This document shows, in pieces, positions 7,232 through 28,748 of a stretch of 64,000 bases of DNA (positions within the stretch are counted from its first letter, which is position 1; each line of letters opens with the position of its first letter). A program made the translations under genes and the position numbers. The notes under the pieces are model-generated. The model saw only the letters and a list, made by a program, of their open reading frames with translations. It was not told the origin of the DNA and did not search any database. The stretch is from an uncultured Klebsiella sp. (GTDB taxonomy: Bacteria; Pseudomonadota; Gammaproteobacteria; Ga0077536): contig CAZKRY010000016.1 of assembly GCA_964555355.1 (NCBI GenBank), positions 28,542 to 92,541 of the forward strand. Reading direction: 5' to 3'.

Positions 7232-7239
7232 GGCCGTCC

Positions 7240-7941: not shown

Positions 7942-7943
7942 CG

Positions 7944-8885: not shown

Positions 8886-8915
8886 TTGGTGTCTCCCCTT
8901 TGGTGCCGTGCGCGC

Positions 8916-10250: not shown

Positions 10251-10334
10251 TTCTCGCTCCCCGATTTTTTGTCAATCAACTTTTGCCAATCGCGATCGCC
10301 GATGATAGGTCCCGCAGTCCCCGCATGGATTCGT

Positions 10335-10934: not shown

Positions 10935-13789
10935 GGCGTTTCCTTTTGCCGCGTGTTGCCCGGGTCGTAAAATGGGGTCGATACGACGTTAACCGGCAGG
11001 AGCGTTCCATCCGAGAGACGAATCGTCAATTCGGTGGGCGCCGTCTCGCTAAGGCGATCGATCACGGCAAGACCAATGGTTTGATTGAGCACCGTGCTGT
11101 AGCCGACGCTCGTGACACGCCCGAGAATTGCCCCACCGTCGATCACGAGGTGACACTCTTCCAGGCCTAGGGCTCGCGAATCGGCAGTCGCAAAACCAAC
11201 CAACCGGCGCGCCGGATGTTCGCGCAAATACTCCAGCGCGGCACGTCCTAGAAACTGGGATTTCTTTAAGTTAACGAGTCCACCTAGCGGCGTTTCGAAG
11301 GGATGCATCACCCCGTCGGTATCTTGCGCGACGATAAGATGACCTTTCTCCAGACGCAGCAGACGTTGGGTTTCAACGCCAAATGGCCGAATCTCGTCAT
11401 TTGCGCCGAGTTCGAGGAATGACTGCCACAGTGCCGGGGCATCGCGGTAATCAAGGTGCACCTCATAACCCACCTCCCCGACAAAACCGACGCGCATCAT
11501 GCGTACCGGCAGCCCACATAGCGTAGCTTCACGAATACCGAGAAACGGAAACGCCGCATCTGACAAATCTTGAGATGTGGCATCACGCAATAACGCTCTT
11601 GCACGCGGCCCGGCAATATTGATTGCCGCAACGTTGCGCGTGCGATCGACGACTTCGACATCAAGCTTATAGGCTGCTGCGATCTGTAACAGTTGGCGAT
11701 AGCTTGCGGGCGCGTGACTGGAACCCGCGGTGACATAGAAATGCGTCTCTCCTAGCCGCGCCGCCACGCCGTCATCGACGATCGTTCCTCGGTGATCGCA
11801 CATCAACACATAACGGGTCATGCCAAGCGCGGTTTTATCGACTGCCGAGGTGTAGGTTAAATTCAATAATTGCGCGGCATCGGGGCCGAAAATTTCGAAC
11901 TTCCCTAAAGTTGAGACATCGATCATCCCAATGCGCTCGCGTACCGCTTGATACTCGTTCAAGCGCGAGGTGCTCGCCGAGCCTTCGCGATAATACTTAG
12001 GCCGTCGCCAAACCCCTGCTTCCATCCATTCCGCCTGTGCCGCGTCGTGTTGCGGATTCAACGCACTTTCAACGTGTGGCCGAATACGCCGCCCGGCCAA
12101 TGTGCCCATCGGCACCGGATGGTAGAACGGCCGCGCCGTGGTTGAGCCGATTTCCGCGAGCGTCTGGCCGTGATACTCGGCGAGCCAGCGCGCAGCGTTG
12201 AGATTGGAGTGCTTGCCTTGGCTCGGCCCCATTCCGTTGGTGGTGTAGCGCTTCAATAGTTCGATATTGTCGAAGCCTTCGCGACACGCCACCGATAAAT
12301 CGTCGAGTTGGATGTCTTCGTCAAAGTCGACAAAGTTCTTGCGCTTGGCATGGGTAAACCAGGGATGCGGGTGCGAGCGGGCAAGGGATTCAACCGGCGG
12401 CGCGGGGGCGGCGGCAACCGGATGATTAAGAGAACGAAGAATCGTCGCCGCGGCCGCTTCGCCATCTTCGATACGCGCCACGAAACGGTAACGCCCATTG
12501 ACGCGTCCGGCCGCCGCGATGCCGCTTGGTAAATGCGTAGGCAACATCTGCTCAAGCGCCCGATCGTGATCAAATCGCGCGCCGGCTTGATGCAGCAATT
12601 GCGTAGCGGGCGCCCAACCGACACTCATCAAGCAGCCATCGCAGGCAATTGAATCCGCAACACCGTTGGCCGTGAACGATACATGGGCGAGTTCCCCATT
12701 ATGAGCATACGCCGCGATATCCTTAGCGAACTTGACGACGCGCACGCCGCGCGCCTTCAACTCCGTCACCAAATCCGCGCATTGTGGGGTGTTTTCCAAA
12801 TCAAGCACCGCAACGATCTGAAGCCCGGCATCGAGCAATTCGAGCGTCGCGACATAAGCGTCTTGATTGCCGGCGAGTACCACGGCGCGCTCGCAGGGCG
12901 CGACGGCATAACGTTGAACCAAGCGCTGGGCGCCGCTCATCAGCATGACACCCGGCAGATCGTTGTTGTGAAAAATTGCCGGCTGCTCAATGACGCCGGT
13001 GGCAACGACCACACACCGTGGAGTCACCACCGTGAGGCCGTCCGCCGCGACCAGCGGCACCTCAAAATCGCTATAGAGTCCGGCGGCGCAGGCGCCCTGC
13101 CGGAGCTCAACGTTCAGTGTGGATAAGTCACGCAAGGTCTCCGCAAGCCACGCGCGCTCTGCCGAGTTTCCGCTGTAAGTCAGACTTCCGCCGGGCTGCG
13201 CATTCTCGTCAGCGACGATGACATTATGGCCGTGTCGCGCGACCTGACGCGCGGCAGCCAATCCGGCCGCACCGCTACCGATCACCAAACAATCACAGCT
13301 CGTCCGTGCGTGAGGATAACGCGTGCGCGGGAAGTGTGGTGCTACCCGGCCAAGTCCACTGACCTGCCGAATCACACGCTCCCACCACTTGAAACTCCAG
13401 CGAGGTCGATAAAAGGCCTTGTAATAGAAGCCTACCGGCAGTAGCGGCGCGAGCCATTCCAAGTACTGCGCCCAATCGCGCTTAACGCCCCCGAAGGTAT
13501 TCACCGCCGTATAAGATTCGCCCGCTATCACCGGCTCCACATCGCCGCGAAGGTTAAGACGCGTCGACGATTGCAATAGAAGATTGCTGTCGTGGTTAGC
13601 GGCCGATAAGACTCCTCGCGGACGGTGGTATTTGAAGCTCCGACCGAGAATGCGATGGCCATTGGCGAGTAAGGCGCTCGCGATCGTATCGCCGCTAAAC
13701 GCGTGGCACACCTCGCCTTCAAATGCAAACGACAACGGCTTATCGCGCGCGATCCATTCATTGGCGCGCGGTGGCAACCTATGCGCCAT
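10931..13789 (-). CDS. mgdC: N-methylglutamate dehydrogenase subunit C (sarcosine oxidase alpha-like)
   Basis: ~950-aa ORF with an N-terminal SoxA 2Fe-2S/T-protein-like region (GDTIASALLANG), an FAD/NAD Rossmann motif (VIGSGAAGLAAA) and a C-terminal GcvT-like folate-binding region. The start was trimmed to MAHRL. Confidence 0.75.
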   Translation of the reverse strand: MAHRLPPRANEWIARDKPLSFAFEGEVCHAFSGDTIASALLANGHRILGRSFKYHRPRGVLSAANHDSNLLLQSSTRLNLRGDVEPVIAGESYTAVNTFGGVKRDWAQYLEWLAPLLPVGFYYKAFYRPRWSFKWWERVIRQVSGLGRVAPHFPRTRYPHARTSCDCLVIGSGAAGLAAARQVARHGHNVIVADENAQPGGSLTYSGNSAERAWLAETLRDLSTLNVELRQGACAAGLYSDFEVPLVAADGLTVVTPRCVVVATGVIEQPAIFHNNDLPGVMLMSGAQRLVQRYAVAPCERAVVLAGNQDAYVATLELLDAGLQIVAVLDLENTPQCADLVTELKARGVRVVKFAKDIAAYAHNGELAHVSFTANGVADSIACDGCLMSVGWAPATQLLHQAGARFDHDRALEQMLPTHLPSGIAAAGRVNGRYRFVARIEDGEAAAATILRSLNHPVAAAPAPPVESLARSHPHPWFTHAKRKNFVDFDEDIQLDDLSVACREGFDNIELLKRYTTNGMGPSQGKHSNLNAARWLAEYHGQTLAEIGSTTARPFYHPVPMGTLAGRRIRPHVESALNPQHDAAQAEWMEAGVWRRPKYYREGSASTSRLNEYQAVRERIGMIDVSTLGKFEIFGPDAAQLLNLTYTSAVDKTALGMTRYVLMCDHRGTIVDDGVAARLGETHFYVTAGSSHAPASYRQLLQIAAAYKLDVEVVDRTRNVAAINIAGPRARALLRDATSQDLSDAAFPFLGIREATLCGLPVRMMRVGFVGEVGYEVHLDYRDAPALWQSFLELGANDEIRPFGVETQRLLRLEKGHLIVAQDTDGVMHPFETPLGGLVNLKKSQFLGRAALEYLREHPARRLVGFATADSRALGLEECHLVIDGGAILGRVTSVGYSTVLNQTIGLAVIDRLSETAPTELTIRLSDGTLLPVNVVSTPFYDPGNTRQKETP

Positions 13790-14045
13790 GGGCGTCCTCG
13801 GTGCGCGTCGCGAGCTTGATCTCAAGCACAGTGTCGGTCGCGGTGTGTCGCGTGATCAGAAACCACAACTGCGACGGACGGTGATACCACCATTCGCGTT
13901 TCTCGCGCGCGGTCGCGTCCCCAAAGTACACACCGTGACGCGCCTGCGCCGTATCGTCCGTCTGCATGGCGCCGATGGCAGCGCCCGCGCAAGTAAATTC
14001 ACTCGCGGGACGCCGGCCAAGCAATGGACAGTCAAATTGTTTCAT
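13779..14045 (-). CDS. mgdB: N-methylglutamate dehydrogenase subunit B (sarcosine oxidase delta-like)
   Basis: 88-aa ORF (MKQFDCPLLGRRPASEFTCAG) with the Cys-rich N-terminus typical of SoxD. Confidence 0.65.
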   Translation of the reverse strand: MKQFDCPLLGRRPASEFTCAGAAIGAMQTDDTAQARHGVYFGDATAREKREWWYHRPSQLWFLITRHTATDTVLEIKLATRTEDAHGA

Positions 14046-14059
14046 CGTGCATGTTCGTG

Positions 14060-15301
14060 TTAATGCCCAACGGCGGCAGCGCCCTTTTCGCCCAGCATCG
14101 TCATGCGCGCAAAGCGTTCCATGCCGAAATTTGCGATCAATTCATGGTTGGTATCGTGGGCAACGGTATACGCCATCGTCTCCCCGCACACGGGGGTCGC
14201 CTTGAAGCCCCACGTGCCCCAACCGGCATCTAGGTAAAACCCTCGCACTGCGGTCACGCCCATCACCGGCGCGAAATCCGGCGTCATATCGGCCATGCCG
14301 GCCCATTGGCGATTGATTTTGACGCCGGCCAAAAACGGGAATAAATCAAGCATCTGATCGGCGAGCGAGGTGACAAATTCCAGCGACGATCGCGTCGAAT
14401 GGAGCTCGGCCGGATCGACTGCGGCGCCCATGACCAGTTCGCCCCGTGCCGACTGACTGACGTACACATGTAAACTGCCGGAGACGATGATCGTATCGAG
14501 CCAGGGCTTCATTGGCTCGGTGACACAGGCCTGCAGCGGCACGATGTCGACCGGACTCGGCAACCCAGCCATCTTTAACGTGCTGGGCGTACTGCCGGCC
14601 ACTGCCGATAACACCTTTTCCGTCGCGATGCGTCCGCGATTGGTCATGACCGCTTGCACTTGATCGTTCGCGATTTCGATTCCGGTGACTTCGGTGTGCT
14701 GAAAGATTTCAACACCAAGCCGCGAGGCGCCGCGTGCATAACCCCAGGCGACGGCATCGTGGCGGACAATGGAACCCGGCGCGTGGTATAGCGCGCCCAC
14801 CACCGCATGCTGTCCGCCGCAGCTTAGATCGAGTTCGGGGCAGGCTTGCTTGACTTCATCCGGCCCAACCAGTCGGCTGTCGATGCCGTAATGGCGATTG
14901 ACTTCCGCCCGCCACCGCGCGGTGCGCAGCGTGGATTCGTTATGCGCGAGCGTAAAGTGCCCGCGCGTACTATAAAAAAGGTTGATATCGAGCGCCTCGG
15001 CAAGACCTTCGAACAAGCGCACGCTGCGATCGTAGAACTTGACGCCTTCCGGTGTCAGATAGTTGGAACGGACGATGGTGGTGTTACGCCCGGTATTGCC
15101 GCCGCCGAGATAGCCCTTATCGAGGACGGCGATACGGCGGATCCCATGTTGGTGCGCTAGATAATAGGCCGCCGCGAGGCCGTGGCCGCCAGCGCCGATA
15201 ATGACCACATCGTAACTTGGCTTGAGCGCGATTGGGGTGTTAAACCAGCGTGGCTCAGCGTAATCGCGTTTGAGCGCATAGCGCAGTAACCGCCGCGACA
15301 T
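14060..15301 (-). CDS. mgdA: N-methylglutamate dehydrogenase subunit A (sarcosine oxidase beta-like FAD oxidoreductase)
   Basis: FAD-binding GxGxxG motif (VVIIGAGGHGLAAAYYLA) in a 413-aa ORF, typical of SoxB/DAO-family flavoproteins. Confidence 0.75.
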   Translation of the reverse strand: MSRRLLRYALKRDYAEPRWFNTPIALKPSYDVVIIGAGGHGLAAAYYLAHQHGIRRIAVLDKGYLGGGNTGRNTTIVRSNYLTPEGVKFYDRSVRLFEGLAEALDINLFYSTRGHFTLAHNESTLRTARWRAEVNRHYGIDSRLVGPDEVKQACPELDLSCGGQHAVVGALYHAPGSIVRHDAVAWGYARGASRLGVEIFQHTEVTGIEIANDQVQAVMTNRGRIATEKVLSAVAGSTPSTLKMAGLPSPVDIVPLQACVTEPMKPWLDTIIVSGSLHVYVSQSARGELVMGAAVDPAELHSTRSSLEFVTSLADQMLDLFPFLAGVKINRQWAGMADMTPDFAPVMGVTAVRGFYLDAGWGTWGFKATPVCGETMAYTVAHDTNHELIANFGMERFARMTMLGEKGAAAVGH

Positions 15302-16461: not shown

Positions 16462-16598
16462 TTGTCATGCCTCCGCGCTTTCGCACTAGCGCACAGTGAA
16501 TTGTGATTTCAATCGACGCCAATTGCCATCTCGAGCCGGCTGGCGGATGCGGTGATACATCCGGTACGCTTGCAAAATATCATTGGCGAGTATTCCGC

Positions 16599-17537
16599 AT
16601 GAAGCTATCGCGCCACGGCGTTTTTATGTTCACCGAAGGCATCCATGCCAGTGATCTTGCGCGCATCGTGCAAGATATTGAACGCATGGGGTACGGCGCC
16701 GTGTGGTTTCCGGAAGCGATTGGCCGTGAAGCCTTGACCACCGCGGCGTTTATTTTGAATCACACTACCTCGCTGATTGCGGCGACCGGCATTGTCAGCG
16801 TCTATGGACGCGATCCGATGGTAGCCGCAATGGCGCAACAAACCTTGACGGAGATGTCGGGCGGCCGATTTTTGTTGGGGCTTGGGGTGTCGCACAGCAT
16901 GTTCGTCGAACCGCGCGGCTACACCTACGGTAAGCCGCTCGTGACCATGCGCAATTACGTCGCAACGTTACGGCAATGTCACACCACGATTTCGGTGACA
17001 AAAAATTTAGCGCTCGAAGGCTTATCACCTCAGGCGGTTGGCAAAGGAGAATTTGGCGCCATCACCAATGACCTAGGCGAAATGCCGCTTGTGCTGGCCG
17101 CGCTTGGACCGAAAATGAACGCGCTTGCCGCGGAAATCGCACAAGGTTCACACCCGTATAACACAACGCCGGAGCACACGCGTCGCACACGTGAACAAAT
17201 CGGCCCGCATGCCTGGCTCTGCCCGATGCAGCGTGTGTGTCTCATGACCGATGCGCGCCGGGCGCGGCAACTCGGGCGGCATATTCTCGCGCTGTATCTG
17301 GCGTTGCCTAACTACCGCAATATGCTGCTGACCTGCGGTTTCACCGAAAAAGACTTTGACAACGGGGGAAGTGATCGCTTGATCGACCCATTACTCGGTT
17401 GGGGTGACGCGGCGCGCATCAGAGCTTATGTCGAGGCGCATCTACTCGCCGGCGCGACTCAGGTCTGTGTGCAAGCGATCGATCCCGACGATCCGACGCG
17501 CCCCTGCATGAAGGCACTGCAAGTACTGATGGAATAG
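16599..17537 (+). CDS. LLM-class (luciferase-like monooxygenase) flavin/F420-dependent oxidoreductase
   Basis: The TIM-barrel LLM family pattern is present (GYGAVWFPEA...LGLGVSHS). The start was chosen at the ATG at 16599 (MKLSRHGVFMF). Confidence 0.6.
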   Translation: MKLSRHGVFMFTEGIHASDLARIVQDIERMGYGAVWFPEAIGREALTTAAFILNHTTSLIAATGIVSVYGRDPMVAAMAQQTLTEMSGGRFLLGLGVSHSMFVEPRGYTYGKPLVTMRNYVATLRQCHTTISVTKNLALEGLSPQAVGKGEFGAITNDLGEMPLVLAALGPKMNALAAEIAQGSHPYNTTPEHTRRTREQIGPHAWLCPMQRVCLMTDARRARQLGRHILALYLALPNYRNMLLTCGFTEKDFDNGGSDRLIDPLLGWGDAARIRAYVEAHLLAGATQVCVQAIDPDDPTRPCMKALQVLME

Positions 17538-17559
17538 CAGGCAGAGTAAGGATGTTGGC

Positions 17560-17720
17560 GCAATGCGCGTGGATACGCCGCCCCTCACCCTGCGCTTCGC
17601 GCCGGCCTCTCCCGGTGGGAGAGGCGAATAGCGTGCTTTCCTTCATGCGTGGTAGGCGCGAATAGCTCACACCCTCTCCCACTTGCGGGAGAGGGCAGGG
17701 TGAGGGTCTTCACGACTGCG
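17560..17720. repeat. REP-like palindromic repeat pair (cctctcccggtgggagagg / ccctctcccacttgcgggagagggcagggtgaggg)
   Basis: Same ctctccc...gggagag core and gggtgaggg flank as the other two repeat loci. It sits between convergent genes. Confidence 0.6.
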
Positions 17721-18702
17721 AGAACCCCTCTCCAAACGTCCCCACCGCGCGTTCGCGTCGTCCACCCGAATCTCCGCCGGCAGTCGTCACATCCTTCAAT
17801 ACCTGCCAATAGCCGAACGACGTCGCCATCTTGGGTCCATGGCCATTCAACAACAGATATTCGCGTAATCGCGCTAGGCGAAAACACGGCACCCACATCA
17901 GTAGATGATGCTCGGTGTGATAGTTCACCCAATAGGGTGCGAATAGTGCGCGTTCGATCCCACTGACGATGGTGGTGCGCGCGTTTTGAAACGGATCGTC
18001 GCGATCCGCGACCACCGCATGCTCGGCGATATTCCGGATGCGCAACACAAATTGTTGCCACGTTAACGCGGGCACCAGCCATAACGTGAAATAAAAATGC
18101 CAATACCCAACGAGCGTGAGTAGCAACAACAGACCGGCGTTCACCGCGATTTGACGGCCGAGCTTTTCGCGGACGCGCGCAAGGCGCACCGGCCATGGAA
18201 GGTCCGCGGGGCCGAGTGCCGCGCGAAGTTGATCGCGCCGTTGGGCAAATCCCGTGCGGCCGACCAAATCGCGAACCAGCTTGCGGCGCAGGCTCGCGCG
18301 CGAGATCGGATAGTGACCGGTCAACACCAGATCCGGATCGTCGGCTTGCATTGTGCGCGCGTGGTGTTGCAAGTGGTAGCGCCGGTATTGGCCGGTCTCG
18401 GCGAGCATCGGGAAGGCGCAAAAATATTGACTTAATAGATCATTCAGCCAACGCGTGCGGGCCAGCATCCCGTGTGCGCCATCGTGCATCAGGATCAACA
18501 AACCTAGTTGGCGCGAGCCTATTAACATGACCGCTACCAGATACGTGAGTGGATTAGGCAGGAACGCGACCAGCATCATACTGCCGGCGATCACAAGCCA
18601 CGCGTGCGCGACAAGTCCCATCCCCCACGCATCGGCGCGCCGACGCACCTCCGCCAGCTGGAAGGTGGTTAGCAGGGCCGTCGCCGCGGGCGCGGATTTC
18701 AT
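17710..18702 (-). CDS. membrane fatty-acid desaturase family protein
   Basis: The histidine boxes HDGAH, HLQHH and HTEHH are present, together with hydrophobic segments. Confidence 0.7.
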   Translation of the reverse strand: MKSAPAATALLTTFQLAEVRRRADAWGMGLVAHAWLVIAGSMMLVAFLPNPLTYLVAVMLIGSRQLGLLILMHDGAHGMLARTRWLNDLLSQYFCAFPMLAETGQYRRYHLQHHARTMQADDPDLVLTGHYPISRASLRRKLVRDLVGRTGFAQRRDQLRAALGPADLPWPVRLARVREKLGRQIAVNAGLLLLLTLVGYWHFYFTLWLVPALTWQQFVLRIRNIAEHAVVADRDDPFQNARTTIVSGIERALFAPYWVNYHTEHHLLMWVPCFRLARLREYLLLNGHGPKMATSFGYWQVLKDVTTAGGDSGGRRERAVGTFGEGFSQS

Positions 18703-18744
18703 CGTTGCGTGAACCTCATCTTGTCGCTATAGCGCAGCATCAAT

Positions 18745-19224
18745 TCATGCGAAGTCAGCCAGCCAACGCTCGATCCCCGCAAGTCCGTCGGCCGCCCACC
18801 AACCAACGCCGCCCCAGGAGAACCGCAGCATCGTCGGTTCGTCTTTGAACATCGGAATCGTTCGATATTGTGGATACTTATGCGCGAGCGCGGCTTCCGC
18901 CGGCAGCCAATCCGGGTGTTTCCCGGTAATGATCTCGGCTGTCGCTTTCAGCCGCACCCACCACAGGTCACGCCAGTCATCCGCGTAATAGTCGAGTACC
19001 AACATCACGCGCGGCGCGCGTTCGAGTCTTGCGAGGCGTCCAAGCTGGCCGGCAGGGCCCTTCGGCTTACCGTCGATCGGAGACCATAGACTTGCCGCCA
19101 CGCGTGCGAACACAATCGGCAACGCCTCCGGCTCATCATCGAGATCACGCAACGCCAGCCGTGCGATCGGCATGCAATCGAGCACCGCTTCAAAGACGTC
19201 GGCCGGTAGGGCTTTCATCGTCAA
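18745..19224 (-). CDS. pyridoxamine 5'-phosphate oxidase-like FMN/F420-binding protein
   Basis: 159-aa ORF whose size and pattern fit the PNPOx-like split-barrel family. Assignment is weak. Confidence 0.45.
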   Translation of the reverse strand: MTMKALPADVFEAVLDCMPIARLALRDLDDEPEALPIVFARVAASLWSPIDGKPKGPAGQLGRLARLERAPRVMLVLDYYADDWRDLWWVRLKATAEIITGKHPDWLPAEAALAHKYPQYRTIPMFKDEPTMLRFSWGGVGWWAADGLAGIERWLADFA

Positions 19225-19893
19225 TTACGCAACGATCACGCGTTCGCGGGTGATGACAAAATCGAGCGGCTCAACCACGAAGTTGTGCTCATCCGCGCGC
19301 GTGCGTGCGTATTCCCCCGTGAGCGCGGATTGTCGCATCGCCTGCGTATCCGTGAACCAAGTCAACGCCACGCCATCGAGAACCGGTTGAAGCCCGTCGC
19401 GATACGCGCCGAGCCGCGTGTGGCTTTGCACATACCGTAGTACCTGTGGGATCGCGCCGCCGAGTGGCCCGTGGGTCTCTATCCAATACTGATGGAACGC
19501 ATGCGGTGCGAGATCGGGTCGTTTGCGCACCAATTCGACGTTTTTGACGCCGTCACCGGGCTGCGGGCCATCCTTGATCACGACATCCTCCGTAATGATT
19601 TCGCGACGCGTGGATACGTCGATGAAATTGGGTTCGTCCGCCAACACCGCGCGCAGTTCAGGCGAGCGCTGTAAGTCGCGCAGCGCTTGCGTATCGTCGA
19701 ACCACAGCTCGGCCAATCCGTCGCAGACAGGCTCGCCTTTGCGATAGGCGCCAGGAAGTGTCTGCGACTGCACGTATCGCCGCAATCCCGGTAAGCGCAC
19801 GACAATCGCGGCGTGACGATCAATCCAATGGCGCTCGAAATCGGCGAGCGCCATGCCGGCGCGCCGCTTGATAATCGTGACGATTTTCAGCAT
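19225..19893 (-). CDS. tandem EthD-domain protein
   Basis: Two internally repeated ~100-aa halves, each matching the EthD pattern (RHWIDRHAAIV...LRRYVQS / HQYWIETHGPLG...LRYVQSH). Confidence 0.55.
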   Translation of the reverse strand: MLKIVTIIKRRAGMALADFERHWIDRHAAIVVRLPGLRRYVQSQTLPGAYRKGEPVCDGLAELWFDDTQALRDLQRSPELRAVLADEPNFIDVSTRREIITEDVVIKDGPQPGDGVKNVELVRKRPDLAPHAFHQYWIETHGPLGGAIPQVLRYVQSHTRLGAYRDGLQPVLDGVALTWFTDTQAMRQSALTGEYARTRADEHNFVVEPLDFVITRERVIVA

Positions 19894-21976: not shown

Positions 21977-22756
21977 TTAGCGCGCGCGCTTCAGGGTGTT
22001 CTGATCGAAGTCCCGATCGCTCAACCCCAAACCAAATTGGTATTCAGTCCACGTCAGCTCGGTACTTTTACCGAGCTGGTGATTGGTCATCAGCATGCGC
22101 CCGGGACGCCAGTATTTTGCCGCATATTGCCGATAATCGCTCACTAGGAGTGTCTTTAGCAGGGAGTTCTTGCGGTCATAGAATTCCACTTTGAGCGGCT
22201 GGTGCATTGTTTTATCGAGCCACACAATCCGTCGGGTATAGCCCGAATGCGTATACGAGGGCGACTCCTCGATCACATAAGCGTCACGCCCGTCGAGAAC
22301 CTCATCGCGCAACCACTGATAGCGGTAGCGCGCAAGTTCGCGCGAGGTCAGATCTTCGTAAGCAAACTCACTGCCGACGAACGGCCCTGATTTATTGGCC
22401 GAAGCAATTCGCTTAATACGCTTCAAGGCGGGTAAATATAGCCACTGATCGTCCGGCGTAAGGGCGTGTGTGTAGCTCAAAAATGCCGTACCGGCGACAT
22501 CCCGCGGAGAATCGAAGATCGTGAGACTTTTGTCGCCGTCGCCGACGACCTCAAGCGTGCGGATACGCAGCTCACGCCGGCTTTCTTGACCTTGGCGATT
22601 ACGCAGCGTCATGGTGAGTTTAGCCGCCAAATCGCCCCAACCCCGATCGGCACGATCGGCTTCCTCGGCGATGGCTAACCCGCGCCCCGCGTCATCGGCC
22701 GTTACCTCGCCTGCGCATAGCAATGCTAACAATAACCACCCAACGCTACGCCACAT
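21977..22756 (-). CDS. LolA-like outer-membrane lipoprotein-sorting family protein
   Basis: Signal peptide. Size and sequence pattern match the LolA-like proteins typically encoded after HAE3 RND exporters. Its start overlaps the RND gene stop. Confidence 0.55.
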   Translation of the reverse strand: MWRSVGWLLLALLCAGEVTADDAGRGLAIAEEADRADRGWGDLAAKLTMTLRNRQGQESRRELRIRTLEVVGDGDKSLTIFDSPRDVAGTAFLSYTHALTPDDQWLYLPALKRIKRIASANKSGPFVGSEFAYEDLTSRELARYRYQWLRDEVLDGRDAYVIEESPSYTHSGYTRRIVWLDKTMHQPLKVEFYDRKNSLLKTLLVSDYRQYAAKYWRPGRMLMTNHQLGKSTELTWTEYQFGLGLSDRDFDQNTLKRAR

Positions 22757-25049
22757 GACGGCGCCCATCGATGAGCAACAATAATGGTGCGAGTAGGAAG
22801 AAATCAGCGAGCAGCGCGAGTCCGATAACCACCGCCGTCAACAAGCCCATGCTCGAGTTCAACTCAAAATTAGAAAGCGTCAACACCAGGAACCCCGCAA
22901 CTAACGAAATCGTGGTGACAATCATCGCACGCCCATTAACGCGAAACGCGTAGCGCACGGCGTCTTCGACGGAATAGCCTTGTACCGTACGCCCGCGCTG
23001 GTATTTGACCAAAAAATGCACGGTGTCATCGATGATGATCCCAAGCGCCATGCTCGCGACCACGGAGAGCGACAATCCTACCTCGCCGACGAATAATCCC
23101 CACAGACCAAAACCCATCGCGAGCGGCACTAAATTGGGGATCAGACTCAAGATACCTAACTTCACCGAGCGCAACATAAACAACAGGACTCCCGAGATCA
23201 GCAATAGTGCAACCACCGTGCCGACCAACATCGAATGGATATTGCGCATCCCGAGTCGCGAGAACATCAAGGCGCTACCGGAGCCTTCCACTCGGGTAAC
23301 GCTGCGCGCATTGGCGCGGACCCAAGCTTCCGCCTTATCGTTAAATTCGATGGATGCCTTGCTCGATAGCGTGCGCATGGCCACCGATACTTTGACCGCG
23401 GATTTGTCGACATTGATTTGGTTATTCAGATCGAGTCCGTACGGCAACGACATTTCATAAAGCAATAGGTACTGCGCCGCCAACTCACGTTCTTCCGGTA
23501 GGCGATACATCGCGGGATCGTCGTCGTGCATGTTCATGTTCAAACGCTGCACGATATCGGTATAGCTAGCGACGTGTTTGACTTCCGGCTGCGCGCGCAA
23601 CCAAGTGACGAACGCCGCCGTCTCACGCAAGAATTCGGGTTCGTTGATGCCGCCCTCGAGCCCCGCTTCCAGGGTGTAGTAGAAGTGATAAACGCCGGTA
23701 AGATTCTCCACCATGAAATCGGTCGCACGCCGAAAATCGACGGAAGGATCGAAATAATCGACGAATACGTCGTTCAACGTATTGCGTGGGATACACAGGA
23801 TTAATCCAAAGACGAGGAGACCAAGCCCCAGCGCGAGCGCGCGATGACGCGCGATGACCCATTCCACCAACGCCGCGAGCGAAGTGAGCTTAACGAGGGG
23901 ACGTGGCGCGGGGCCCACGGGGAGCAGCATGAGAACCGCCGGCAACAGCGATATTGCAAGCAGATAAGACGCTATATCCCCGAACGCGACCAAATTCCCC
24001 AGCTGACGAAACGGCGGCACTTCAGAGAAATTAAAAGTCAGAAATCCGATCACCGTGGTCACACTCGCGAGAAAGATCGGCTTTAGATTGTGACTGACGG
24101 ATTCGATCAGCGCTTCCTGGCGCGCGGCGCCACCGTGCAGCGCCTGCAAGTACGCTTCCAGAACATGCACACAATTGGCAATCGCCACCGTCAAAATAAC
24201 GACCGGCGCGGCTGACGTCGCGGCCGAGATGGGATATCCGAGGTGGCTGCCGAGCCCCATTGCAACAATGATCGCAAGCCCAATTACCAAGGTGGTGCTC
24301 AGCGCGCCTATCAGGTGGCCGAACAAAACGCCAACCAGCGCCACCATCAGCGCGAAGCTTATTGGGATGAGGGACTTGATCCCTTTGCGCGATTCTTCGG
24401 CGAAGGCATTGTCCATCATGACCGCGCCGGTCAAATAAATTTTTAAACCCGGATTCGCACTCTCAAACTCCTTGGCAAGCGCCCGAGCGGCCGACACCAC
24501 TTGCGGGACTTCGAGGTGCTCATCGAGCCGTGGTAGTTGCACAACTACGTTGATCGCCGTGACTTGTGCGCGTTCGTTGACGAGCACACCGTGCAGCAAC
24601 GGCTCGGCGAGCGCGATAGCTTTGACGCGCGCGAGCGCCGCGTCATCCAGATCCGAGGCATCCGCTACCAAATCGCGAACGCTGAGTTCATCGCCTTGCG
24701 CCTCGGTGTGCTGGAAGTTGGTTAGCGAATCGACGCGCGACACGTAGGGGATTTGCCATGCGCGCGCGGTGAGGTCGGCGACCAAAGTTAATGTCTCGCG
24801 ACTGAACACCCGCGCGTTCTCCGGCGCAACGACGAAATTCAGCGTATCGTTTTTAACGAACGTATTTTCGAGCGCGTTGAACTCCAGGAGTTCCGGATTA
24901 TCCGCACTGAAGAACTGGCGATAGTTATTGTTGATCGTCAGCGTGCGCAGGCCGCTCGCCGCGGCCGCGATCACACATAACCAAAGGATGACCACGCGCC
25001 AGGGGTGGCTGACCACCCACAGCGCATAGCGGAGCGCCAGGGATTGCAT
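22746..25049 (-). CDS. RND superfamily exporter, HAE3/MMPL-type
   Basis: 767-aa ORF with two blocks of ~6 TM helices separated by periplasmic loops, the classic MMPL/RND topology. Confidence 0.75.
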   Translation of the reverse strand: MQSLALRYALWVVSHPWRVVILWLCVIAAAASGLRTLTINNNYRQFFSADNPELLEFNALENTFVKNDTLNFVVAPENARVFSRETLTLVADLTARAWQIPYVSRVDSLTNFQHTEAQGDELSVRDLVADASDLDDAALARVKAIALAEPLLHGVLVNERAQVTAINVVVQLPRLDEHLEVPQVVSAARALAKEFESANPGLKIYLTGAVMMDNAFAEESRKGIKSLIPISFALMVALVGVLFGHLIGALSTTLVIGLAIIVAMGLGSHLGYPISAATSAAPVVILTVAIANCVHVLEAYLQALHGGAARQEALIESVSHNLKPIFLASVTTVIGFLTFNFSEVPPFRQLGNLVAFGDIASYLLAISLLPAVLMLLPVGPAPRPLVKLTSLAALVEWVIARHRALALGLGLLVFGLILCIPRNTLNDVFVDYFDPSVDFRRATDFMVENLTGVYHFYYTLEAGLEGGINEPEFLRETAAFVTWLRAQPEVKHVASYTDIVQRLNMNMHDDDPAMYRLPEERELAAQYLLLYEMSLPYGLDLNNQINVDKSAVKVSVAMRTLSSKASIEFNDKAEAWVRANARSVTRVEGSGSALMFSRLGMRNIHSMLVGTVVALLLISGVLLFMLRSVKLGILSLIPNLVPLAMGFGLWGLFVGEVGLSLSVVASMALGIIIDDTVHFLVKYQRGRTVQGYSVEDAVRYAFRVNGRAMIVTTISLVAGFLVLTLSNFELNSSMGLLTAVVIGLALLADFFLLAPLLLLIDGRRHVA

Positions 25050-25052
25050 CCG

Positions 25053-25817
25053 CTATTGCGCGGTGTATCCCCCATCCACAGGAAGCGCCACCCCGGTGAG
25101 AAACGATGCCTCGTCGGAGAGCAACCAGGATACGGCATCCGCGATTTCGCGGGGCTCGCCGAGTCGATCCATCGGTTCTTGCGCAATTAATGATTGCTCC
25201 GCGACACCCGAGCTATTCAAGAGACGCTCGACCATGGGCGTACGAATGACGCCCGGACAAACTGCATTGACGCGAATGCGTTTCCGCGCAAATTCGAGCG
25301 CCACGCTCTTGGTCAAGCCGACGACGCCGTGCTTGGACGCGCAATAGGCGCTCGCGCCGCGCGCGCCAAGCAAACCCGCCACCGACGCGGTACTAACGAT
25401 TGCACCGCCGGTACCCTGGCTAATGAATTGTTCGACCTGATGTTTGATGCAGAGCCAAACTCCCTTCAGATTGACCGCAATGGTGCGATCGAAACTCTCT
25501 TCGGTCATCTTGAGAATATTGGTGAAATCGCCTTCGATGCCGGCATTGTTAAACGCGCCATCGAGTTTGCCGTAAGCCTTCACGGTCGCCGCAATCAACG
25601 CCTGTACTTCGCTCGCCACCGCGACATTCGTCTTCACGAAAAGCGCGGAGCCCCCTGCTTTGTTGATGAGGTCGACCGTCGCTTGCGCGTCGGTTACGTT
25701 GACGTCGGCCACCACCACCTTGGCGCCATCCGCCGCAACGCGCTGCGCGCTGGCGCGGCCGATGCCGGTGCTGCCGCCCGTTACGATGATTACTTTATTG
25801 GCTAGTTTCCCTGTCAC
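25053..25817 (-). CDS. SDR-family oxidoreductase
   Basis: TGGSTGIGRA Rossmann motif and YCASK catalytic motif. The stop lies 3 nt before the RND start. Confidence 0.85.
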   Translation of the reverse strand: MTGKLANKVIIVTGGSTGIGRASAQRVAADGAKVVVADVNVTDAQATVDLINKAGGSALFVKTNVAVASEVQALIAATVKAYGKLDGAFNNAGIEGDFTNILKMTEESFDRTIAVNLKGVWLCIKHQVEQFISQGTGGAIVSTASVAGLLGARGASAYCASKHGVVGLTKSVALEFARKRIRVNAVCPGVIRTPMVERLLNSSGVAEQSLIAQEPMDRLGEPREIADAVSWLLSDEASFLTGVALPVDGGYTAQ

Positions 25818-25909
25818 GTTGCACTCCCCTAAACGAGATTCATCAATCTTGCGCGCATGGTATCAGAAGCACGCGGTTGGTCATTCGGCGCACGATGTCG
25901 CACGTTACT

Positions 25910-27841
25910 TCAAGCGGCTTCGCGAGGTTTGGTCAAAGCAAGATTGCGCCATTCCTTGGGATTCGCGCAGCGCAATTGCGCGGCCTCCAGTACCATGCGT
26001 ATGAAATCGGCATAGCGGTAGCCCGCGAAGCCCGCCATTAAATTCATCTTGCCGTCCCAACACCAACCGGGATTGGGGTTGACTTCGAGCAGCTTGAGTT
26101 GACCGTTCGCATCCGCGCGAAAGTCAATCCGAGCGTAATCGCGGCAGCCTAAGCGTTCAAACAGGGTGATCGACCAGTCCACCATTTGACGCCGTGATTC
26201 GTCGTCGATGACGGCTTGACGATATTCGAGGTCGTCCCAATACGGCGAATCCGGGCACCACTTCGATTCGTAACTGAGGATTTTCGGAAGCTCGGCGGGT
26301 AGCCCACTATAGTCCACTTCAAGCAGTGGCAACACGGTATAGCCAAACCCCGGATTGCCGATTAATCCCACCGTGAACTCACGGCCGGGCAAAAACTCTT
26401 GGACTAACAGCGGACGCCCCGGCAAGGTCGTACGAAGCTCCGTCAAGTACGCCATCGCTTCTTCCGTGTTATTCACGACCGAGCGGCGCGTAATGCCAAG
26501 GCTGCTGTCGCCCAAACAAGGTTTGATTAGCGCCGGGAAAATGGACGGGAGCGTCGCCCCCTGATCGTCCGGATCGAAAAGTGACTCGAGCGGCACGGGA
26601 ATGTCGAATGACTCGGCCGCCGCACGGACCAAGGCCTTGTTATAACAAAGACCAAGCGCGGCCGGGCCGGCCCCGCTGTAGGGGACGCCGAATAACTCCA
26701 GCAAGGCGGGGACGTGTAGCTCTTTCAATGCGTCGTTGTTGAACCCTTCATCGCAGAGGTTCAGCACGAACGTCGATTGCAAGTTGCGCAACTCGTTGAT
26801 AAGCGCGCTATGGTTATCAAGATATTGGAACGTATAGCCCGGCAGTTCTTGTAATGCCGTCTTCAAGCGACTGACGATTTCAAAGTCTTCCTGATTGAAC
26901 ACGCCATTGCGTTTGATTTCATCCGGGAGGCGCGGGTCGCCGAGTAACACCGAGACATGCGGGTAGAGCACATCGCCACGCTTTTTAGTAGATATTTTGA
27001 CCGGTGCCACCGCGGAGATGAAATTACGGTGCGCCATCATGCCCAAATCGGAATTTCGTGTGGAACGCGCTTCGAGCGCGCCATGGAAGCGAATCTCGGA
27101 AAACCCGGTGGATTCCAGTAATTTTGAGATCCGCTCGCGCGAATAGAGTCGCTCGGCGTAGAACTGGTCGGCGATGACGCCTTTTTCCGCGTGCACCACG
27201 ACCTCACGCGATATCACCCGCCCCTGATCGGCGGATAACGAACGTTCACGACACACGAATTGGTTTTCGTCGATCCACTCCCACGAACGTCGTTCGAAGT
27301 TCTGCCGCATCCATTCGCCGTCCATCAGATCGAGCAGTATTTTGCCGTTGGAGCGTAGCGCGCGTTTGATCGACGCAAGCACCACGAGATCGTCTTCCTC
27401 GCGGTCAAAATAACCGAACGAGTTGCCCATCAAAATGACGCAATCGAAGCTCGACTCAGGTACCGCGACTTTGCGCGCGTCGCCCTCGCGAAATCGCACA
27501 TCGAGCCCGGCCACGCGCGCGCGCCGGCGCGCCAGGCTCACTAAATATCGCGAGCGATCGAGACCGGTGACTTTCTTAAAGCCACGTCGTGCCAGCTCCA
27601 ACGAATGTCGTCCCTGCCCACAGCAAAGATCGAGTACCCGATCGTTCGGATCGAGGCCGGCGGCGGCCAAAATCGCCTCGACCTCGCGCACCGTGTTGTC
27701 GTCGTTCTCGACGACATCGCCATCGGTTTTTAGATACAGCGAGTTAAAAAGGCTACGCCACCATTCGGGCGGCAAGTGATGTTCGAGGTCCGGGACTGGG
27801 CCAAGTGTGCGCGCGGTGTTTTGTTTTTGTTTGGCGTCCAT
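25910..27841 (-). CDS. fusion protein: N-terminal class-I SAM-dependent methyltransferase, C-terminal D-Ala-D-Ala-ligase-like ATP-grasp
   Basis: N-terminal half carries a SAM-binding motif (VLDLCCGQGRHS...DARKV...FDCVILMGNSFGYF). C-terminal half carries Ddl-like motifs (LIKPCLGDSSLGI, ARIDFRADANGQLKLLEVNPNPGW). Confidence 0.65.
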   Translation of the reverse strand: MDAKQKQNTARTLGPVPDLEHHLPPEWWRSLFNSLYLKTDGDVVENDDNTVREVEAILAAAGLDPNDRVLDLCCGQGRHSLELARRGFKKVTGLDRSRYLVSLARRRARVAGLDVRFREGDARKVAVPESSFDCVILMGNSFGYFDREEDDLVVLASIKRALRSNGKILLDLMDGEWMRQNFERRSWEWIDENQFVCRERSLSADQGRVISREVVVHAEKGVIADQFYAERLYSRERISKLLESTGFSEIRFHGALEARSTRNSDLGMMAHRNFISAVAPVKISTKKRGDVLYPHVSVLLGDPRLPDEIKRNGVFNQEDFEIVSRLKTALQELPGYTFQYLDNHSALINELRNLQSTFVLNLCDEGFNNDALKELHVPALLELFGVPYSGAGPAALGLCYNKALVRAAAESFDIPVPLESLFDPDDQGATLPSIFPALIKPCLGDSSLGITRRSVVNNTEEAMAYLTELRTTLPGRPLLVQEFLPGREFTVGLIGNPGFGYTVLPLLEVDYSGLPAELPKILSYESKWCPDSPYWDDLEYRQAVIDDESRRQMVDWSITLFERLGCRDYARIDFRADANGQLKLLEVNPNPGWCWDGKMNLMAGFAGYRYADFIRMVLEAAQLRCANPKEWRNLALTKPREAA

Positions 27842-27980: not shown

Positions 27981-28634
27981 TCATCTGCGGGTATAGCATC
28001 GCACGTAGTCCGGAAGCGGATAGTCCACGGTCTGCTTGGGATCGGTGATCGGTGCTTGCGGCACCATGGGCAACGGCAACACCCCCGCCCAAGTAGGATG
28101 CAGCAATTCGTCGTCGGCATCGCCCGGCGGCCCTTGACGGATTTTGGCCGCGGCGTCTTCGATGTCGAGCGCGACGATCGTCGTCGCCTGCAATTCTTTG
28201 TCGGTTGGGTATCGCGCATCGGCCCAACGTCCGGGGCACACGTGTTCGGTCAGGCAGTGCAACGCTGCAAGCTTTTGCGCCGGATCATCGATCGCACGCC
28301 CGCGACCATAGAGCACCACCGAACGATAATTCATTGAATGGTTGAACACCGTGCGCGCGAGTACCAAGCCATCGAGCAACGTGACGGCGACGGCCAGCGG
28401 ATTGCCGGCATTGATATGTTCGAGCATCCGCCCGCCCTTCAAGCCATGCAACAGAACCTGTTCACCCATGCGCGCGTGAATCGTCGGAATCAGAAACGGC
28501 TGTCCATCCATCACAAAACTGACGTGGCAAACCAACCCTTCGTCCAGAATGCGAAATACCGTCTCCCGGTCATAGGCCGCCCGCTTGGGGTAACGCATGA
28601 CGCGATTGCGTCCATTGATTGCGAAATCAGACAT
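27981..28634 (-). CDS. pyridoxamine 5'-phosphate oxidase family FMN-binding protein
   Basis: Start trimmed to the ATG at 28634 (MSDFAINGRNR), which has a GAGAGGTG Shine-Dalgarno upstream. Assignment to the PNPOx-like family is by size and pattern only. Confidence 0.5.
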   Translation of the reverse strand: MSDFAINGRNRVMRYPKRAAYDRETVFRILDEGLVCHVSFVMDGQPFLIPTIHARMGEQVLLHGLKGGRMLEHINAGNPLAVAVTLLDGLVLARTVFNHSMNYRSVVLYGRGRAIDDPAQKLAALHCLTEHVCPGRWADARYPTDKELQATTIVALDIEDAAAKIRQGPPGDADDELLHPTWAGVLPLPMVPQAPITDPKQTVDYPLPDYVRCYTRR

Positions 28635-28748
28635 AGGCACCTCTCGTTTAGGTTGCTGGATCCCGGCCCTTCTACACCGCTTCGACCGCGTTGACCACCC
28701 CACGCGCCATCCACTACAGTCCGGACGTCATCCGTCGGCGCCCTAACT

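What the first reader, a model, noticed from the sequence alone, without database searches (positions are those of the whole stretch)
21977..27841. Methyltransferase::Ddl-like ATP-grasp fusion heading an SDR, RND exporter and LolA-like operon
A 643-aa protein fuses a class-I SAM methyltransferase domain (N-terminal half) to a D-alanine-D-alanine-ligase-type ATP-grasp domain (C-terminal half). I do not recognise this architecture as characterised.

It is followed on the same strand by an SDR oxidoreductase (92-nt gap), an HAE3/MMPL RND exporter (3-nt gap) and a LolA-like periplasmic carrier (overlapping). The ensemble of ligase, methylase, reductase, inner-membrane lipid exporter and periplasmic lipid chaperone looks like a biosynthesis-and-export line for an amino-acid-modified, possibly N-methylated, lipid or other hydrophobic small molecule.
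Basis: partly seen in the sequence, partly recalled or inferred. Interest (0 to 1): 0.6.

Follow-up and report, generated by a model that had tools for sequence, protein, structure and literature searches.

The report
Orphan methyltransferase–amide-ligase fusion enzyme
The 643-residue protein is a real and very widely conserved two-in-one enzyme, an amine-type methyltransferase joined to an ATP-dependent amide-bond ligase, whose product is unknown; the reductase, exporter and carrier genes after it are chance neighbours in this genome, not partners.

Summary
Four minus-strand ORFs sit at the stated coordinates with the stated domains and gaps. The 643-aa methyltransferase::Ddl-like ATP-grasp fusion is not an artefact: full-length relatives (62-85% identity) occur in at least 486 species genomes across many phyla. 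Same-architecture proteins occur in zoosporic fungi and a choanoflagellate. Split two-gene forms occur in a Nitrososphaerota archaeon and a metagenome contig.

The operon reading does not hold. SDR, RND and LolA-like genes lie near the fusion only in the five closest gammaproteobacterial loci. There the block is inverted, so it converges on the fusion gene. The other 75 loci lack it. Across 55 non-redundant contexts, no Pfam family recurs in more than 3 of 100 nearest neighbours on either side.

The methyltransferase half is closest to NmbA, the bacillithiol cysteine-N-methyltransferase (35% identity over the whole fold). The ligase half is a complete Ddl fold with intact catalytic residues but a changed substrate pocket (Y216 to W, S281-L282 to G-K).

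Most likely it is a self-contained bifunctional enzyme making an N-methylated amide-linked small molecule. The substrates are unknown. There are weak, lineage-level links to diamine and polyamine genes and to AstE/AspA deacylases. I found no published characterisation.

The parts
25910..27841 (-). Gene for the 643-aa bifunctional protein (methyltransferase::ATP-grasp ligase)
   Evidence: ORF, translation. Pfam and NCBIfam. Full-length relatives.
27002..27766 (-). N-terminal half (aa ~26-280): class I SAM methyltransferase with a four-strand cap, NmbA/CypM-like
   Evidence: Best solved relative is 9RI2 (NmbA): E 1.6e-27, aa 26-258 against 15-244 of 266, 35% identity. Motif I is LDLCCGQGRH. AF2 strands 185-231 form the cap.
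25964..26959 (-). C-terminal half (aa ~295-626): complete three-domain Ddl-type ATP-grasp ligase
   Evidence: Foldseek against DdlB and other Ddl structures gives target-normalised TM 0.7-0.82. Alignment to E. coli DdlB keeps K402, K440, S446, E482, K527, R571, D573, E586 and N588, and changes Y216 to W528 and S281-L282 to G597-K598. The linker (aa 283-289) has low pLDDT.
25818..25909 (-). 92-nt spacer between the fusion gene and the SDR gene; one edge of the inverted block
   Evidence: Sequence, with a GGGGAG Shine-Dalgarno before the GTG start. No terminator-like or promoter-like site in the spacer, and site counts in the region are at shuffle level. The homology breakpoint lies between window 25811 and 25938.
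21977..25817 (-). SDR (25817..25053), HAE3/MMPL RND (25049..22746) and LolA-like (22768..21977): a separate three-gene unit, inverted here relative to the closest relatives
   Evidence: Pfam. In L002, L003, L016 and L022 the same three genes keep their order but lie on the strand opposite the fusion.
27981..28703 (-). Upstream same-strand gene for a Pyridox_ox_2 flavoprotein (139-nt gap to the fusion); a variable neighbour
   Evidence: Pfam E 1.7e-39. The same position is occupied in L001. The gene is absent between the biotin carboxylase gene and the fusion in L002, L003, L016 and L022.

Best explanation
The 643-aa protein belongs to a widespread, strongly conserved family of free-standing bifunctional enzymes.

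The C-terminal half is a Ddl-type ATP-grasp ligase. It would activate a carboxylate as an acyl phosphate and join it to an amine, forming an amide bond.

The N-terminal half is a SAM-dependent methyltransferase of the NmbA/CypM/daptide type. It would methylate a free amine of that substrate or product, most simply the alpha-amine of the acyl-side residue.

The product would be a small N-methylated, dipeptide-like or amino-acid-amine conjugate built from common metabolites, so no dedicated operon partners are needed.

The SDR-RND-LolA genes downstream are an independent unit that a local inversion placed on the same strand in this genome.

Shown: the architecture, its conservation, intact catalytic residues, the altered pocket, split forms, and the lack of conserved partners.

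Inferred: amide ligation followed by N-methylation, the order of the two steps, and the class of substrates.
For: 1. The architecture is real and under strong selection. Relatives are 62-85% identical over the full length across Gamma- and Alphaproteobacteria, Planctomycetota, Nitrospirales, Omnitrophota, Hydrogenedentota, Myxococcota and Anaerolineales. Mean column identity is 69% in 46 sequences. 659 representatives at 50% clustering score E<=1e-30.

2. The two halves are functionally coupled.
- Adjacent separate genes occur in L087 (Nitrososphaerota): the MT is 51% and the ATP-grasp 42% identical to the window halves, and the genes overlap by 14 nt.
- L088 has the same pair with a 6-nt gap.
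- The same two-domain order occurs in chytrid, blastocladian, monoblepharid and Olpidium fungi and in Monosiga.

3. The ligase half looks active. All ATP, Mg and acyl-phosphate residues of DdlB are kept, and the full Ddl fold is predicted.

4. It is not a true Ddl. Y216 becomes an invariant W528 and S281-L282 becomes an invariant G597-K598. NCBIfam Ddl scores are 93-101 bits against cut-offs of 243-246.

5. The MT half is closest to enzymes that methylate a free alpha-amine next to an amide: NmbA (99.7 bits, 35% identity including the cap; PMC12719100), the daptide methyltransferase (67.9 bits) and CypM.

6. There is no conserved partner. In 55 non-redundant contexts, no Pfam family occurs in more than 3 of 100 nearest neighbours on either side.

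7. The SDR-RND-LolA unit is independent.
Against: - No member has been assayed, so substrates, methyl acceptor atom and reaction order are all inferred.
- 35% identity to NmbA does not fix the acceptor. Related class I enzymes methylate O, C or S.
- The AF2 model has pTM 0.56, so the relative placement of the two active sites is unknown.
- No terminator was found in the 92-nt spacer, so read-through into the SDR gene in this one genome cannot be excluded.
- Fusions of relatives to LRR and S9 peptidase domains, and operons with SET-domain proteins, would also fit a peptide or protein substrate.
Confidence: 0.55

Rival explanations
1. Variant of the main reading. The amine partner or the methyl acceptor is a diamine, polyamine or basic amino acid (putrescine, agmatine, homospermidine, Orn/Lys/DAB). 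The enzyme would then make an N-methylated aminoacyl-polyamine-type conjugate, which AstE/AspA-type deacylases recycle.
For: Polyamine genes sit close to the family in several separate contexts.
- L085: pyruvoyl arginine decarboxylase, then a standalone Ddl-like gene, then the fusion, all co-directional, with a deoxyhypusine/homospermidine-synthase-like gene divergent from them.
- L048: a PvlArgDC-agmatinase-DS-like operon diverges from a TetR gene followed by the fusion.
- 13 loci of one alphaproteobacterial (Stellaceae-like) lineage: a LysA/ODC-like PLP decarboxylase lies downstream on the same strand.
- Planctomycete loci L026, L066, L068 and L086: a DoeB-like AstE/AspA deacylase lies 27-190 bp downstream.

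The ligase also has many invariant acidic and Trp residues (D302, D307, D319, D364, E365, W528, W535, W593), which could bind cationic groups.
Against: - These are three or four lineage-level associations among about 55 contexts, a modest excess over chance by my rough estimate.
- Most loci, including this window, have no such neighbour.
- The role proposed for the acidic and aromatic residues was not tested on coordinates.
Confidence: 0.2
2. The enzyme modifies a peptide or protein. It would add an amino acid RimK- or TTL-style and methylate a terminal amine, rather than make a free metabolite.
For: - The closest characterised MT relatives include the peptide N-terminal methyltransferases CypM and the daptide MT.
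- Standalone MT relatives sit directly after SET-domain (protein-lysine-methyltransferase fold) genes in L082, L083 and L084. L082 has an ATP-grasp::MYND::SET fusion, and L082 and L083 have a cNMP-gated ABC exporter.
- ATP-grasp relatives are fused to LRR repeats in a Lokiarchaeia MAG and to a prolyl oligopeptidase in Monosiga.
Against: - No conserved small ORF or target gene lies next to the fusion.
- The ligase is nearest to the small-molecule Ddl fold with a closed pocket.
- The SET-linked MTs are paralogues: 47% identical to P0201, the standalone MT used as query, which is itself 49% identical to the window MT half. The ATP-grasp in L082 is only 32% identical over 164 aa.
Confidence: 0.12
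3. One reading: the fusion, SDR, RND exporter and LolA-like carrier form one operon that makes and exports an amino-acid-modified, N-methylated lipid or hydrophobic molecule.
For: - In this window the four genes share a strand with short gaps.
- No terminator was detected in the 92-nt spacer.
- The three downstream genes stay next to the fusion gene in the four closest relatives that have all three.
Against: - In those relatives the block is inverted and convergent, so it cannot be co-transcribed with the fusion.
- 75 of 80 loci lack the block.
- The fusion family reaches archaea and eukaryotes that have no such partners.
- No acyl- or lipid-handling domain is present in the fusion.
Confidence: 0.06
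4. The enzyme makes a low-molecular-weight thiol: the ligase couples cysteine to a partner and the NmbA-like domain N-methylates the cysteine amine, by analogy with N-methyl-bacillithiol.
For: - NmbA is the closest characterised relative of the MT half (PMC12719100).
- From my own knowledge, a Ddl-like ATP-grasp domain performs the second step in the bifunctional glutathione synthetase GshF.
Against: - 35% identity sits at the lower bound (35-95% identity) that the NmbA authors set for homologues in their similarity network (PMC12719100). [quoted passage not shown]
- No bshA, bshB or bshC gene was seen in any locus.
- Proteobacterial carriers would already make glutathione (my own knowledge).
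Confidence: 0.05

Closest known systems
NmbA (bacillithiol N-methyltransferase, Chlorobaculum tepidum CT1040; PDB 9RI2)
   Same: Class I SAM fold plus a four-strand cap, aligned end to end (aa 26-258 against 15-244 of 266; 35% identity; E 1.6e-27). Shared motif I, xLDxxCGxGRH.
   Different: NmbA is a single-domain 266-aa protein that works with BshA, BshB and BshC. Here the domain is fused to a ligase and no bsh genes are in view. Identity is at the lower bound of the range the NmbA authors set for homologues in their network (PMC12719100).
D-alanine--D-alanine ligase (Ddl; e.g. E. coli DdlB, PDB 2DLN/1IOV)
   Same: Complete three-domain ATP-grasp fold (target-normalised TM about 0.8). All ATP, Mg and acyl-phosphate residues are conserved.
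   Different: About 20% identity. NCBIfam scores are far below the cut-offs. The D-Ala2 site is changed (Y216 to W, S281-L282 to G-K, H63 to C). There is no cell-wall gene context. The family is present in archaea and fungi.
Bifunctional enzymes carrying a Ddl- or RimK-like ATP-grasp domain: GshF (gamma-glutamylcysteine ligase::ATP-grasp) and Ngg (GNAT::ATP-grasp, N-acetylglutaminylglutamine synthetase). Cited from my own knowledge, not tested here.
   Same: Same design principle: an ATP-grasp amide ligase fused to the enzyme for the neighbouring step, giving a self-contained route to a small modified peptide.
   Different: The partner domain is a methyltransferase rather than a ligase or acetyltransferase. 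No sequence-level membership was tested.
Carnosine synthase (ATP-grasp, ATPGD1) plus carnosine N-methyltransferase, which together give anserine
   Same: Works alike in outline: ATP-grasp dipeptide ligation followed by SAM-dependent N-methylation (papers listed).
   Different: In animals these are two separate, unrelated proteins, and methylation is on the imidazole ring. No homology was shown here.
DsyGD (bifunctional DMSP synthesis enzyme, Gynuella sunshinyii)
   Same: An N-terminal class I methyltransferase fused to a second catalytic domain.
   Different: DsyD is a ureidoglycolate-lyase-like decarboxylase (PF04115), not an ATP-grasp (PMC11306096). Rejected.
HAE3/MMPL RND transporter with a LolA-like periplasmic partner (HpnN-like systems)
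   Same: The downstream pair matches MMPL, HAE3 and LolA_like. SDR, RND and LolA keep their order in the relatives.
   Different: Scores are below the HAE3 and HpnN cut-offs. The cargo is unknown. The pair is not linked to the fusion gene.

Membership tests
D-alanine--D-alanine ligase (EC 6.3.2.4) | Score at or above the curated family cut-off (TIGR01205 / PRK01372) | tested here: not met
   93.3 bits against 245.65, and 101.4 bits against 243.
D-alanine--D-alanine ligase (EC 6.3.2.4) | ATP-grasp catalytic residues (DdlB K97, K144, S150, E180, K215, R255, D257, E270, N272) | tested here: met
   K402, K440, S446, E482, K527, R571, D573, E586 and N588 align with them and are invariant in 46 relatives.
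D-alanine--D-alanine ligase (EC 6.3.2.4) | D-Ala2 site: Tyr216 (or Phe) plus Ser281-Leu282 | tested here: not met
   W528 and G597-K598 occupy these positions, and all three are invariant.
D-alanine--D-alanine ligase (EC 6.3.2.4) | Three-domain Ddl fold | tested here: met
   Foldseek E 1e-19, target-normalised TM 0.7-0.82 against many Ddl structures.
NmbA (bacillithiol N-methyltransferase) | Full-length homology including the cap domain | tested here: met
   aa 26-258 against 15-244 of 266, E 1.6e-27, 35% identity.
NmbA (bacillithiol N-methyltransferase) | Co-occurrence with BshA, BshB and BshC in the genome | not testable with these tools
   Only 64 kb of this genome is available. No bsh-like genes were seen in the window ORFs that were scanned. 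No whole-genome access.
NmbA (bacillithiol N-methyltransferase) | Methylates the cysteine N of bacillithiol | not testable with these tools
   Needs an enzyme assay.
HAE3 RND exporter | TIGR00921 score at or above the cut-off; MMPL Pfam domain | tested here: inconclusive
   MMPL is met (91 bits against 20.5). TIGR00921 gives 157 bits against 351.9.
Conserved four-gene operon (fusion-SDR-RND-LolA) | Same-strand linkage conserved in homologous loci | tested here: not met
   0 of 80 related loci have it. 4 have all three genes on the opposite strand, 1 has only the SDR on the opposite strand, and 75 have none.
DsyGD | C-terminal DsyD (PF04115) decarboxylase domain | tested here: not met
   The C-terminal half is Dala_Dala_lig_C. 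DsyD is defined in PMC11306096.

The most novel reading that the evidence does not exclude
The family is the sole dedicated enzyme for a not-yet-described N-methylated amide metabolite. This could be an N-methyl dipeptide or an N-methyl-aminoacyl-diamine/polyamine, or conceivably a thiol. It would be made by bacteria of about ten or more phyla, by ammonia-oxidising-type archaea, and by zoosporic fungi and choanoflagellates. If so, a whole small-molecule class has been missed because its carriers are mostly uncultured.
Probability: 0.3. Interest if true: 0.7.

Novelty: new variant of a known kind. Interest (0 to 1): 0.45.

Why it matters
This is a two-step pathway packed into one polypeptide. 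It is 62-85% identical across phyla, split into two genes in archaea and kept in early-diverging opisthokonts, so it very likely makes one specific, physiologically important compound. Public annotation calls it either a generic methyltransferase or, wrongly, D-Ala-D-Ala ligase. Identifying the product would correct thousands of annotations and could reveal a new N-methylated metabolite. It would also extend the newly defined NmbA class of N-directed methyltransferases. For genome readers the case is a caution: same-strand adjacency in a single genome, here produced by a 3.85-kb inversion, is not an operon.

Tried and rejected
- **DsyGD (DMSP synthesis).** Recalled as an MT fusion. Rejected because DsyD is ureidoglycolate-lyase-like.
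- **Mycosporine MysB/MysD-type cluster.** Considered from memory. No DDGS/EEVS-like gene was found among the window ORFs scanned, and the MT is NmbA-like. Not pursued.
- **Conserved neighbour search.** BLAST clustering of ORFs in 80 loci was confounded by antisense ORFs in GC-rich DNA. I redid it with a GC3-weighted gene caller and Pfam counts. No partner is general.
- **Standalone ATP-grasp relatives.** Their contexts (L081 and the P0334 locus) were uninformative.
- **Promoter and terminator scan of the 92-nt spacer.** Site counts in the region are at chance level and none lies in the spacer.
- **Inverted repeats at the inversion edges.** None convincing.
- **afdb50 fold search.** Library unavailable.
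- **Iyer et al. 2009 amidoligase survey (PMC3268129).** Not held.
- **Exact look-up of the window protein to name the source contig.** Not on record.
- **Literature searches for an MT::ATP-grasp enzyme.** No characterised example found.
Full report
**Observation**

The four ORFs exist as described, all on the minus strand (translations):

| Coordinates | Length | Pfam match |
|---|---|---|
| 27841..25910 | 643 aa | Methyltransf_25 (aa 69-166, E 1.5e-20) plus Dala_Dala_lig_C (aa 434-618, E 1e-19) |
| 25817..25053 | 254 aa, GTG start | adh_short_C2 (E 7e-65) |
| 25049..22746 | 767 aa | MMPL (E 8e-26) |
| 22768..21977 | 263 aa | LolA_like (E 2e-63) |

NCBIfam aligns aa 329-622 of the 643-aa protein to nearly the whole Ddl model, but at 93-101 bits against cut-offs of about 245. 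The RND protein is HAE3-like but below its cut-off.

**Is the fusion real?**

Yes.
- An identical 643-aa protein is on record.
- The best 120 relatives are all 631-719 aa with both domain sets, at 65-85% identity. They come from Gamma- and Alphaproteobacteria, Planctomycetota, Dehalococcoidia and other MAGs.
- A scan of one genome per species found 486 encoding stretches. The 80 loci kept span Stellaceae, Rhodospirillales, Pirellulales, Sedimentisphaerales, Nitrospirales, Omnitrophota, Hydrogenedentota, Myxococcota and Anaerolineales.
- A 46-sequence alignment has 69% mean column identity.
- An exhaustive HMMER search of 50%-identity representatives gave 659 proteins at E<=1e-30.
- These include same-architecture proteins from Monosiga brevicollis and from zoosporic fungi: Blastocladiella, Paraphysoderma, Coelomomyces, Gonapodya, Synchytrium, Polyrhizophydium, Quaeritorhiza and Olpidium.

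**Is it an operon with SDR, RND and LolA?**

No.
- tblastn of the three downstream proteins against the 80 loci finds the SDR in 5 loci, and the RND and LolA in 4. These are only the closest gammaproteobacterial loci, and the hits are always on the opposite strand.
- DNA alignment shows both flanks are colinear with the window: biotin carboxylase, BCCP and carboxyltransferase on one side, and the acetyl-CoA hydrolase/transferase gene on the other. Window 25811..21978 maps in reverse.
- In the relatives the layout is therefore fusion gene, then LolA, RND and SDR pointing back at it. The window carries a ~3.85-kb inversion of an autonomous SDR-RND-LolA unit.
- No inverted repeats mark the edges.
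- The 92-nt spacer has a good Shine-Dalgarno for the SDR and no detectable terminator. Read-through in this one genome cannot be excluded, but it is not a conserved feature.

**Are there other partners?**

- After GC3-aware gene calling, the 80 loci collapse to 55 non-redundant contexts.
- Pfam scans of the two nearest genes on each side show no family in more than 3 of 100 neighbours.
- Lineage-level recurrences do exist:
  - A LysA/ODC-like PLP decarboxylase lies downstream in 13 loci of one alphaproteobacterial lineage.
  - A DoeB-like AstE/AspA deacylase lies 27-190 bp downstream in planctomycete loci.
  - A pyruvoyl arginine decarboxylase and a deoxyhypusine/homospermidine-synthase-like gene lie beside the family in L085 and L048. 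L048 also has an agmatinase.
  - A fused hydantoinase/oxoprolinase lies upstream in three contexts.
- These hint at diamine, polyamine or basic-amino-acid chemistry but are too few to be decisive.

**The two halves**

*Ligase half.*
- AlphaFold2 on the family alignment (pLDDT 81) gives two well-folded halves joined by a disordered linker at aa 283-289.
- Foldseek places aa ~295-626 on complete Ddl structures (E about 1e-19, target-normalised TM 0.7-0.82).
- Alignment to E. coli DdlB keeps K97, K144, S150, E180, K215, R255, D257, E270 and N272 (here K402, K440, S446, E482, K527, R571, D573, E586 and N588).
- The alignment replaces Y216 by W528, S281-L282 by G597-K598, and H63 by C363. W528, G597, K598 and C363 are invariant in the family.
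- Many standalone ATP-grasp relatives of 340-370 aa carry the same NLCDEG..N and NPNPGW signature.
- The ligase therefore looks catalytically competent, but it is not a D-Ala-D-Ala ligase.

*Methyltransferase half.*
- It matches one solved structure far better than any other: 9RI2, at 99.7 bits against 57 for the next hit.
- 9RI2 is NmbA, shown in 2025 to methylate the cysteine nitrogen of bacillithiol and described as founding a class of N-directed natural-product methyltransferases (PMC12719100).
- Identity is 35% over 225 aligned columns, cap included.
- The next relatives include the daptide methyltransferase and CypM.
- All three methylate a free amine adjacent to an amide. This is the basis for proposing N-methylation of the ligase's substrate or product.

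**Coupling of the halves**

Relatives of the MT half also exist as standalone genes.
- In L087 (Nitrososphaerota) the MT gene overlaps a standalone ATP-grasp gene by 14 nt. They are 51% and 42% identical to the window halves, and the ATP-grasp carries the same signature motifs.
- L088 has the same pair 6 nt apart.
- L085 combines a standalone MT, a standalone Ddl-like gene, a full fusion and polyamine genes.
- A paralogous branch of standalone MTs sits directly after SET-domain genes. L082 and L083 add a cNMP-gated ABC exporter, and L082 has an ATP-grasp::MYND::SET fusion. That ATP-grasp is only distantly related, at 32% identity over 164 aa.
- These data support a functional MT-ligase partnership. 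They leave open whether some branches act on peptides.

**Mechanism and confidence**

| Claim | Confidence |
|---|---|
| The gene is a genuine, free-standing bifunctional enzyme unrelated to the SDR-RND-LolA unit | ~0.9 |
| It forms an amide bond and N-methylates an amine of the same molecule, giving a small N-methylated conjugate | ~0.55 |

The rivals, with their confidences:
- A polyamine or diamine substrate variant (0.2).
- Peptide or protein modification (0.12).
- A thiol pathway (0.05).

The polyamine/diamine variant is a sub-case of the main reading, so its 0.2 lies within the 0.55 and is not added to it.

**Comparison, novelty and score**

The parts are known kinds: a class I MT of the NmbA class and a Ddl-type ATP-grasp. 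The design resembles GshF, Ngg, or the two-enzyme carnosine-to-anserine route. The fused family itself appears uncharacterised and is mis-annotated. DsyGD, the only MT fusion I recalled as similar, has a different second domain.

I rate the finding a new variant of a known kind, with interest 0.45. The operon idea fails. What remains is a widely conserved orphan enzyme with archaeal and eukaryotic members and a plausible, testable chemistry, which is a worthwhile target.

Noticed in passing
window 5277-15301 (minus strand): This gene set looks like the N-methylglutamate pathway for methylamine use. It has a type III glutamine-synthetase-like gene (TIGR03105, 660 bits, above cut-off; the GmaS position). 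It has a class II amidotransferase-like gene, an FwdC-like GXGXG protein and a GltB-like protein (MgsABC-like). It also has sarcosine-oxidase alpha and beta family subunits (MgdABCD-like). The pathway assignment is from my own knowledge of this gene set.
   Followed up: partly
window 21978-25811, compared with L002, L003, L016 and L022: A ~3.85-kb block holding exactly SDR-RND-LolA is inverted relative to four related genomes while both flanks stay colinear. No flanking inverted repeats were found. The relatives also carry an acyl-CoA-synthetase-like gene next to the SDR that this window lacks.
   Followed up: yes
L082 1149-6843; L083 2995-6849; L084 5230-6921: Standalone relatives of the MT half lie directly after SET-domain genes. 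L082 and L083 also have an ABC exporter carrying a cyclic-nucleotide-binding domain. L082 has an 863-aa ATP-grasp::MYND::SET fusion, and L084 has a JmjC/Cupin_8 gene nearby. This looks like a separate amine-methylating peptide or metabolite system.
   Followed up: partly
L085 268-7149 (28% GC metagenome contig): A dense cluster: an NmbA-like MT, a second UbiE-like MT, a deoxyhypusine-synthase-like gene, pyruvoyl arginine decarboxylase, a standalone Ddl-like gene and then a full MT::Ddl fusion.
   Followed up: partly
Proteins P0130 and P0247 (Monosiga brevicollis XP_001745518 and XP_001745658; gene tags MONBRDRAFT_25176 and 25175): The choanoflagellate MT::ATP-grasp protein has a consecutive gene-tag number with a protein that fuses a related ATP-grasp domain to a prolyl oligopeptidase (S9). 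Among eukaryotes, the family was seen only in zoosporic fungi and this choanoflagellate.
   Followed up: partly
window 37020-38114 and 38924-40012 (minus strand): Two paralogous radical-SAM genes carry the CofH/MqnC C-terminal region. They could belong to F420 (FO synthase) or futalosine-type cofactor synthesis. Not examined further.
   Followed up: no
window 16503-19893: A luciferase-like monooxygenase, a fatty-acid desaturase, an unassigned 159-aa ORF and a double EthD-domain protein lie together. This may be a small oxidative lipid or hydrocarbon module. It is colinear with L004.
   Followed up: no
L002, L009 and L036 record titles: Several MAG records carrying the family have implausible species labels (Klebsiella pneumoniae, Asaia bogorensis, Bathyarchaeia). 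The neighbouring genes look like environmental Gamma- or Alphaproteobacteria, so the taxonomic labels in these bins should not be trusted.
   Followed up: no
Proteins P0400, P0410, P0461, P0141 and P0277: Many 420-500-aa 'half-plus' versions of the family sit on long ENA contigs. They are an MT plus ~200 unassigned residues, or an ATP-grasp with an N-terminal extension. They look like frameshift-broken fusions in long-read assemblies rather than true variants. L086 is one such case.
   Followed up: partly
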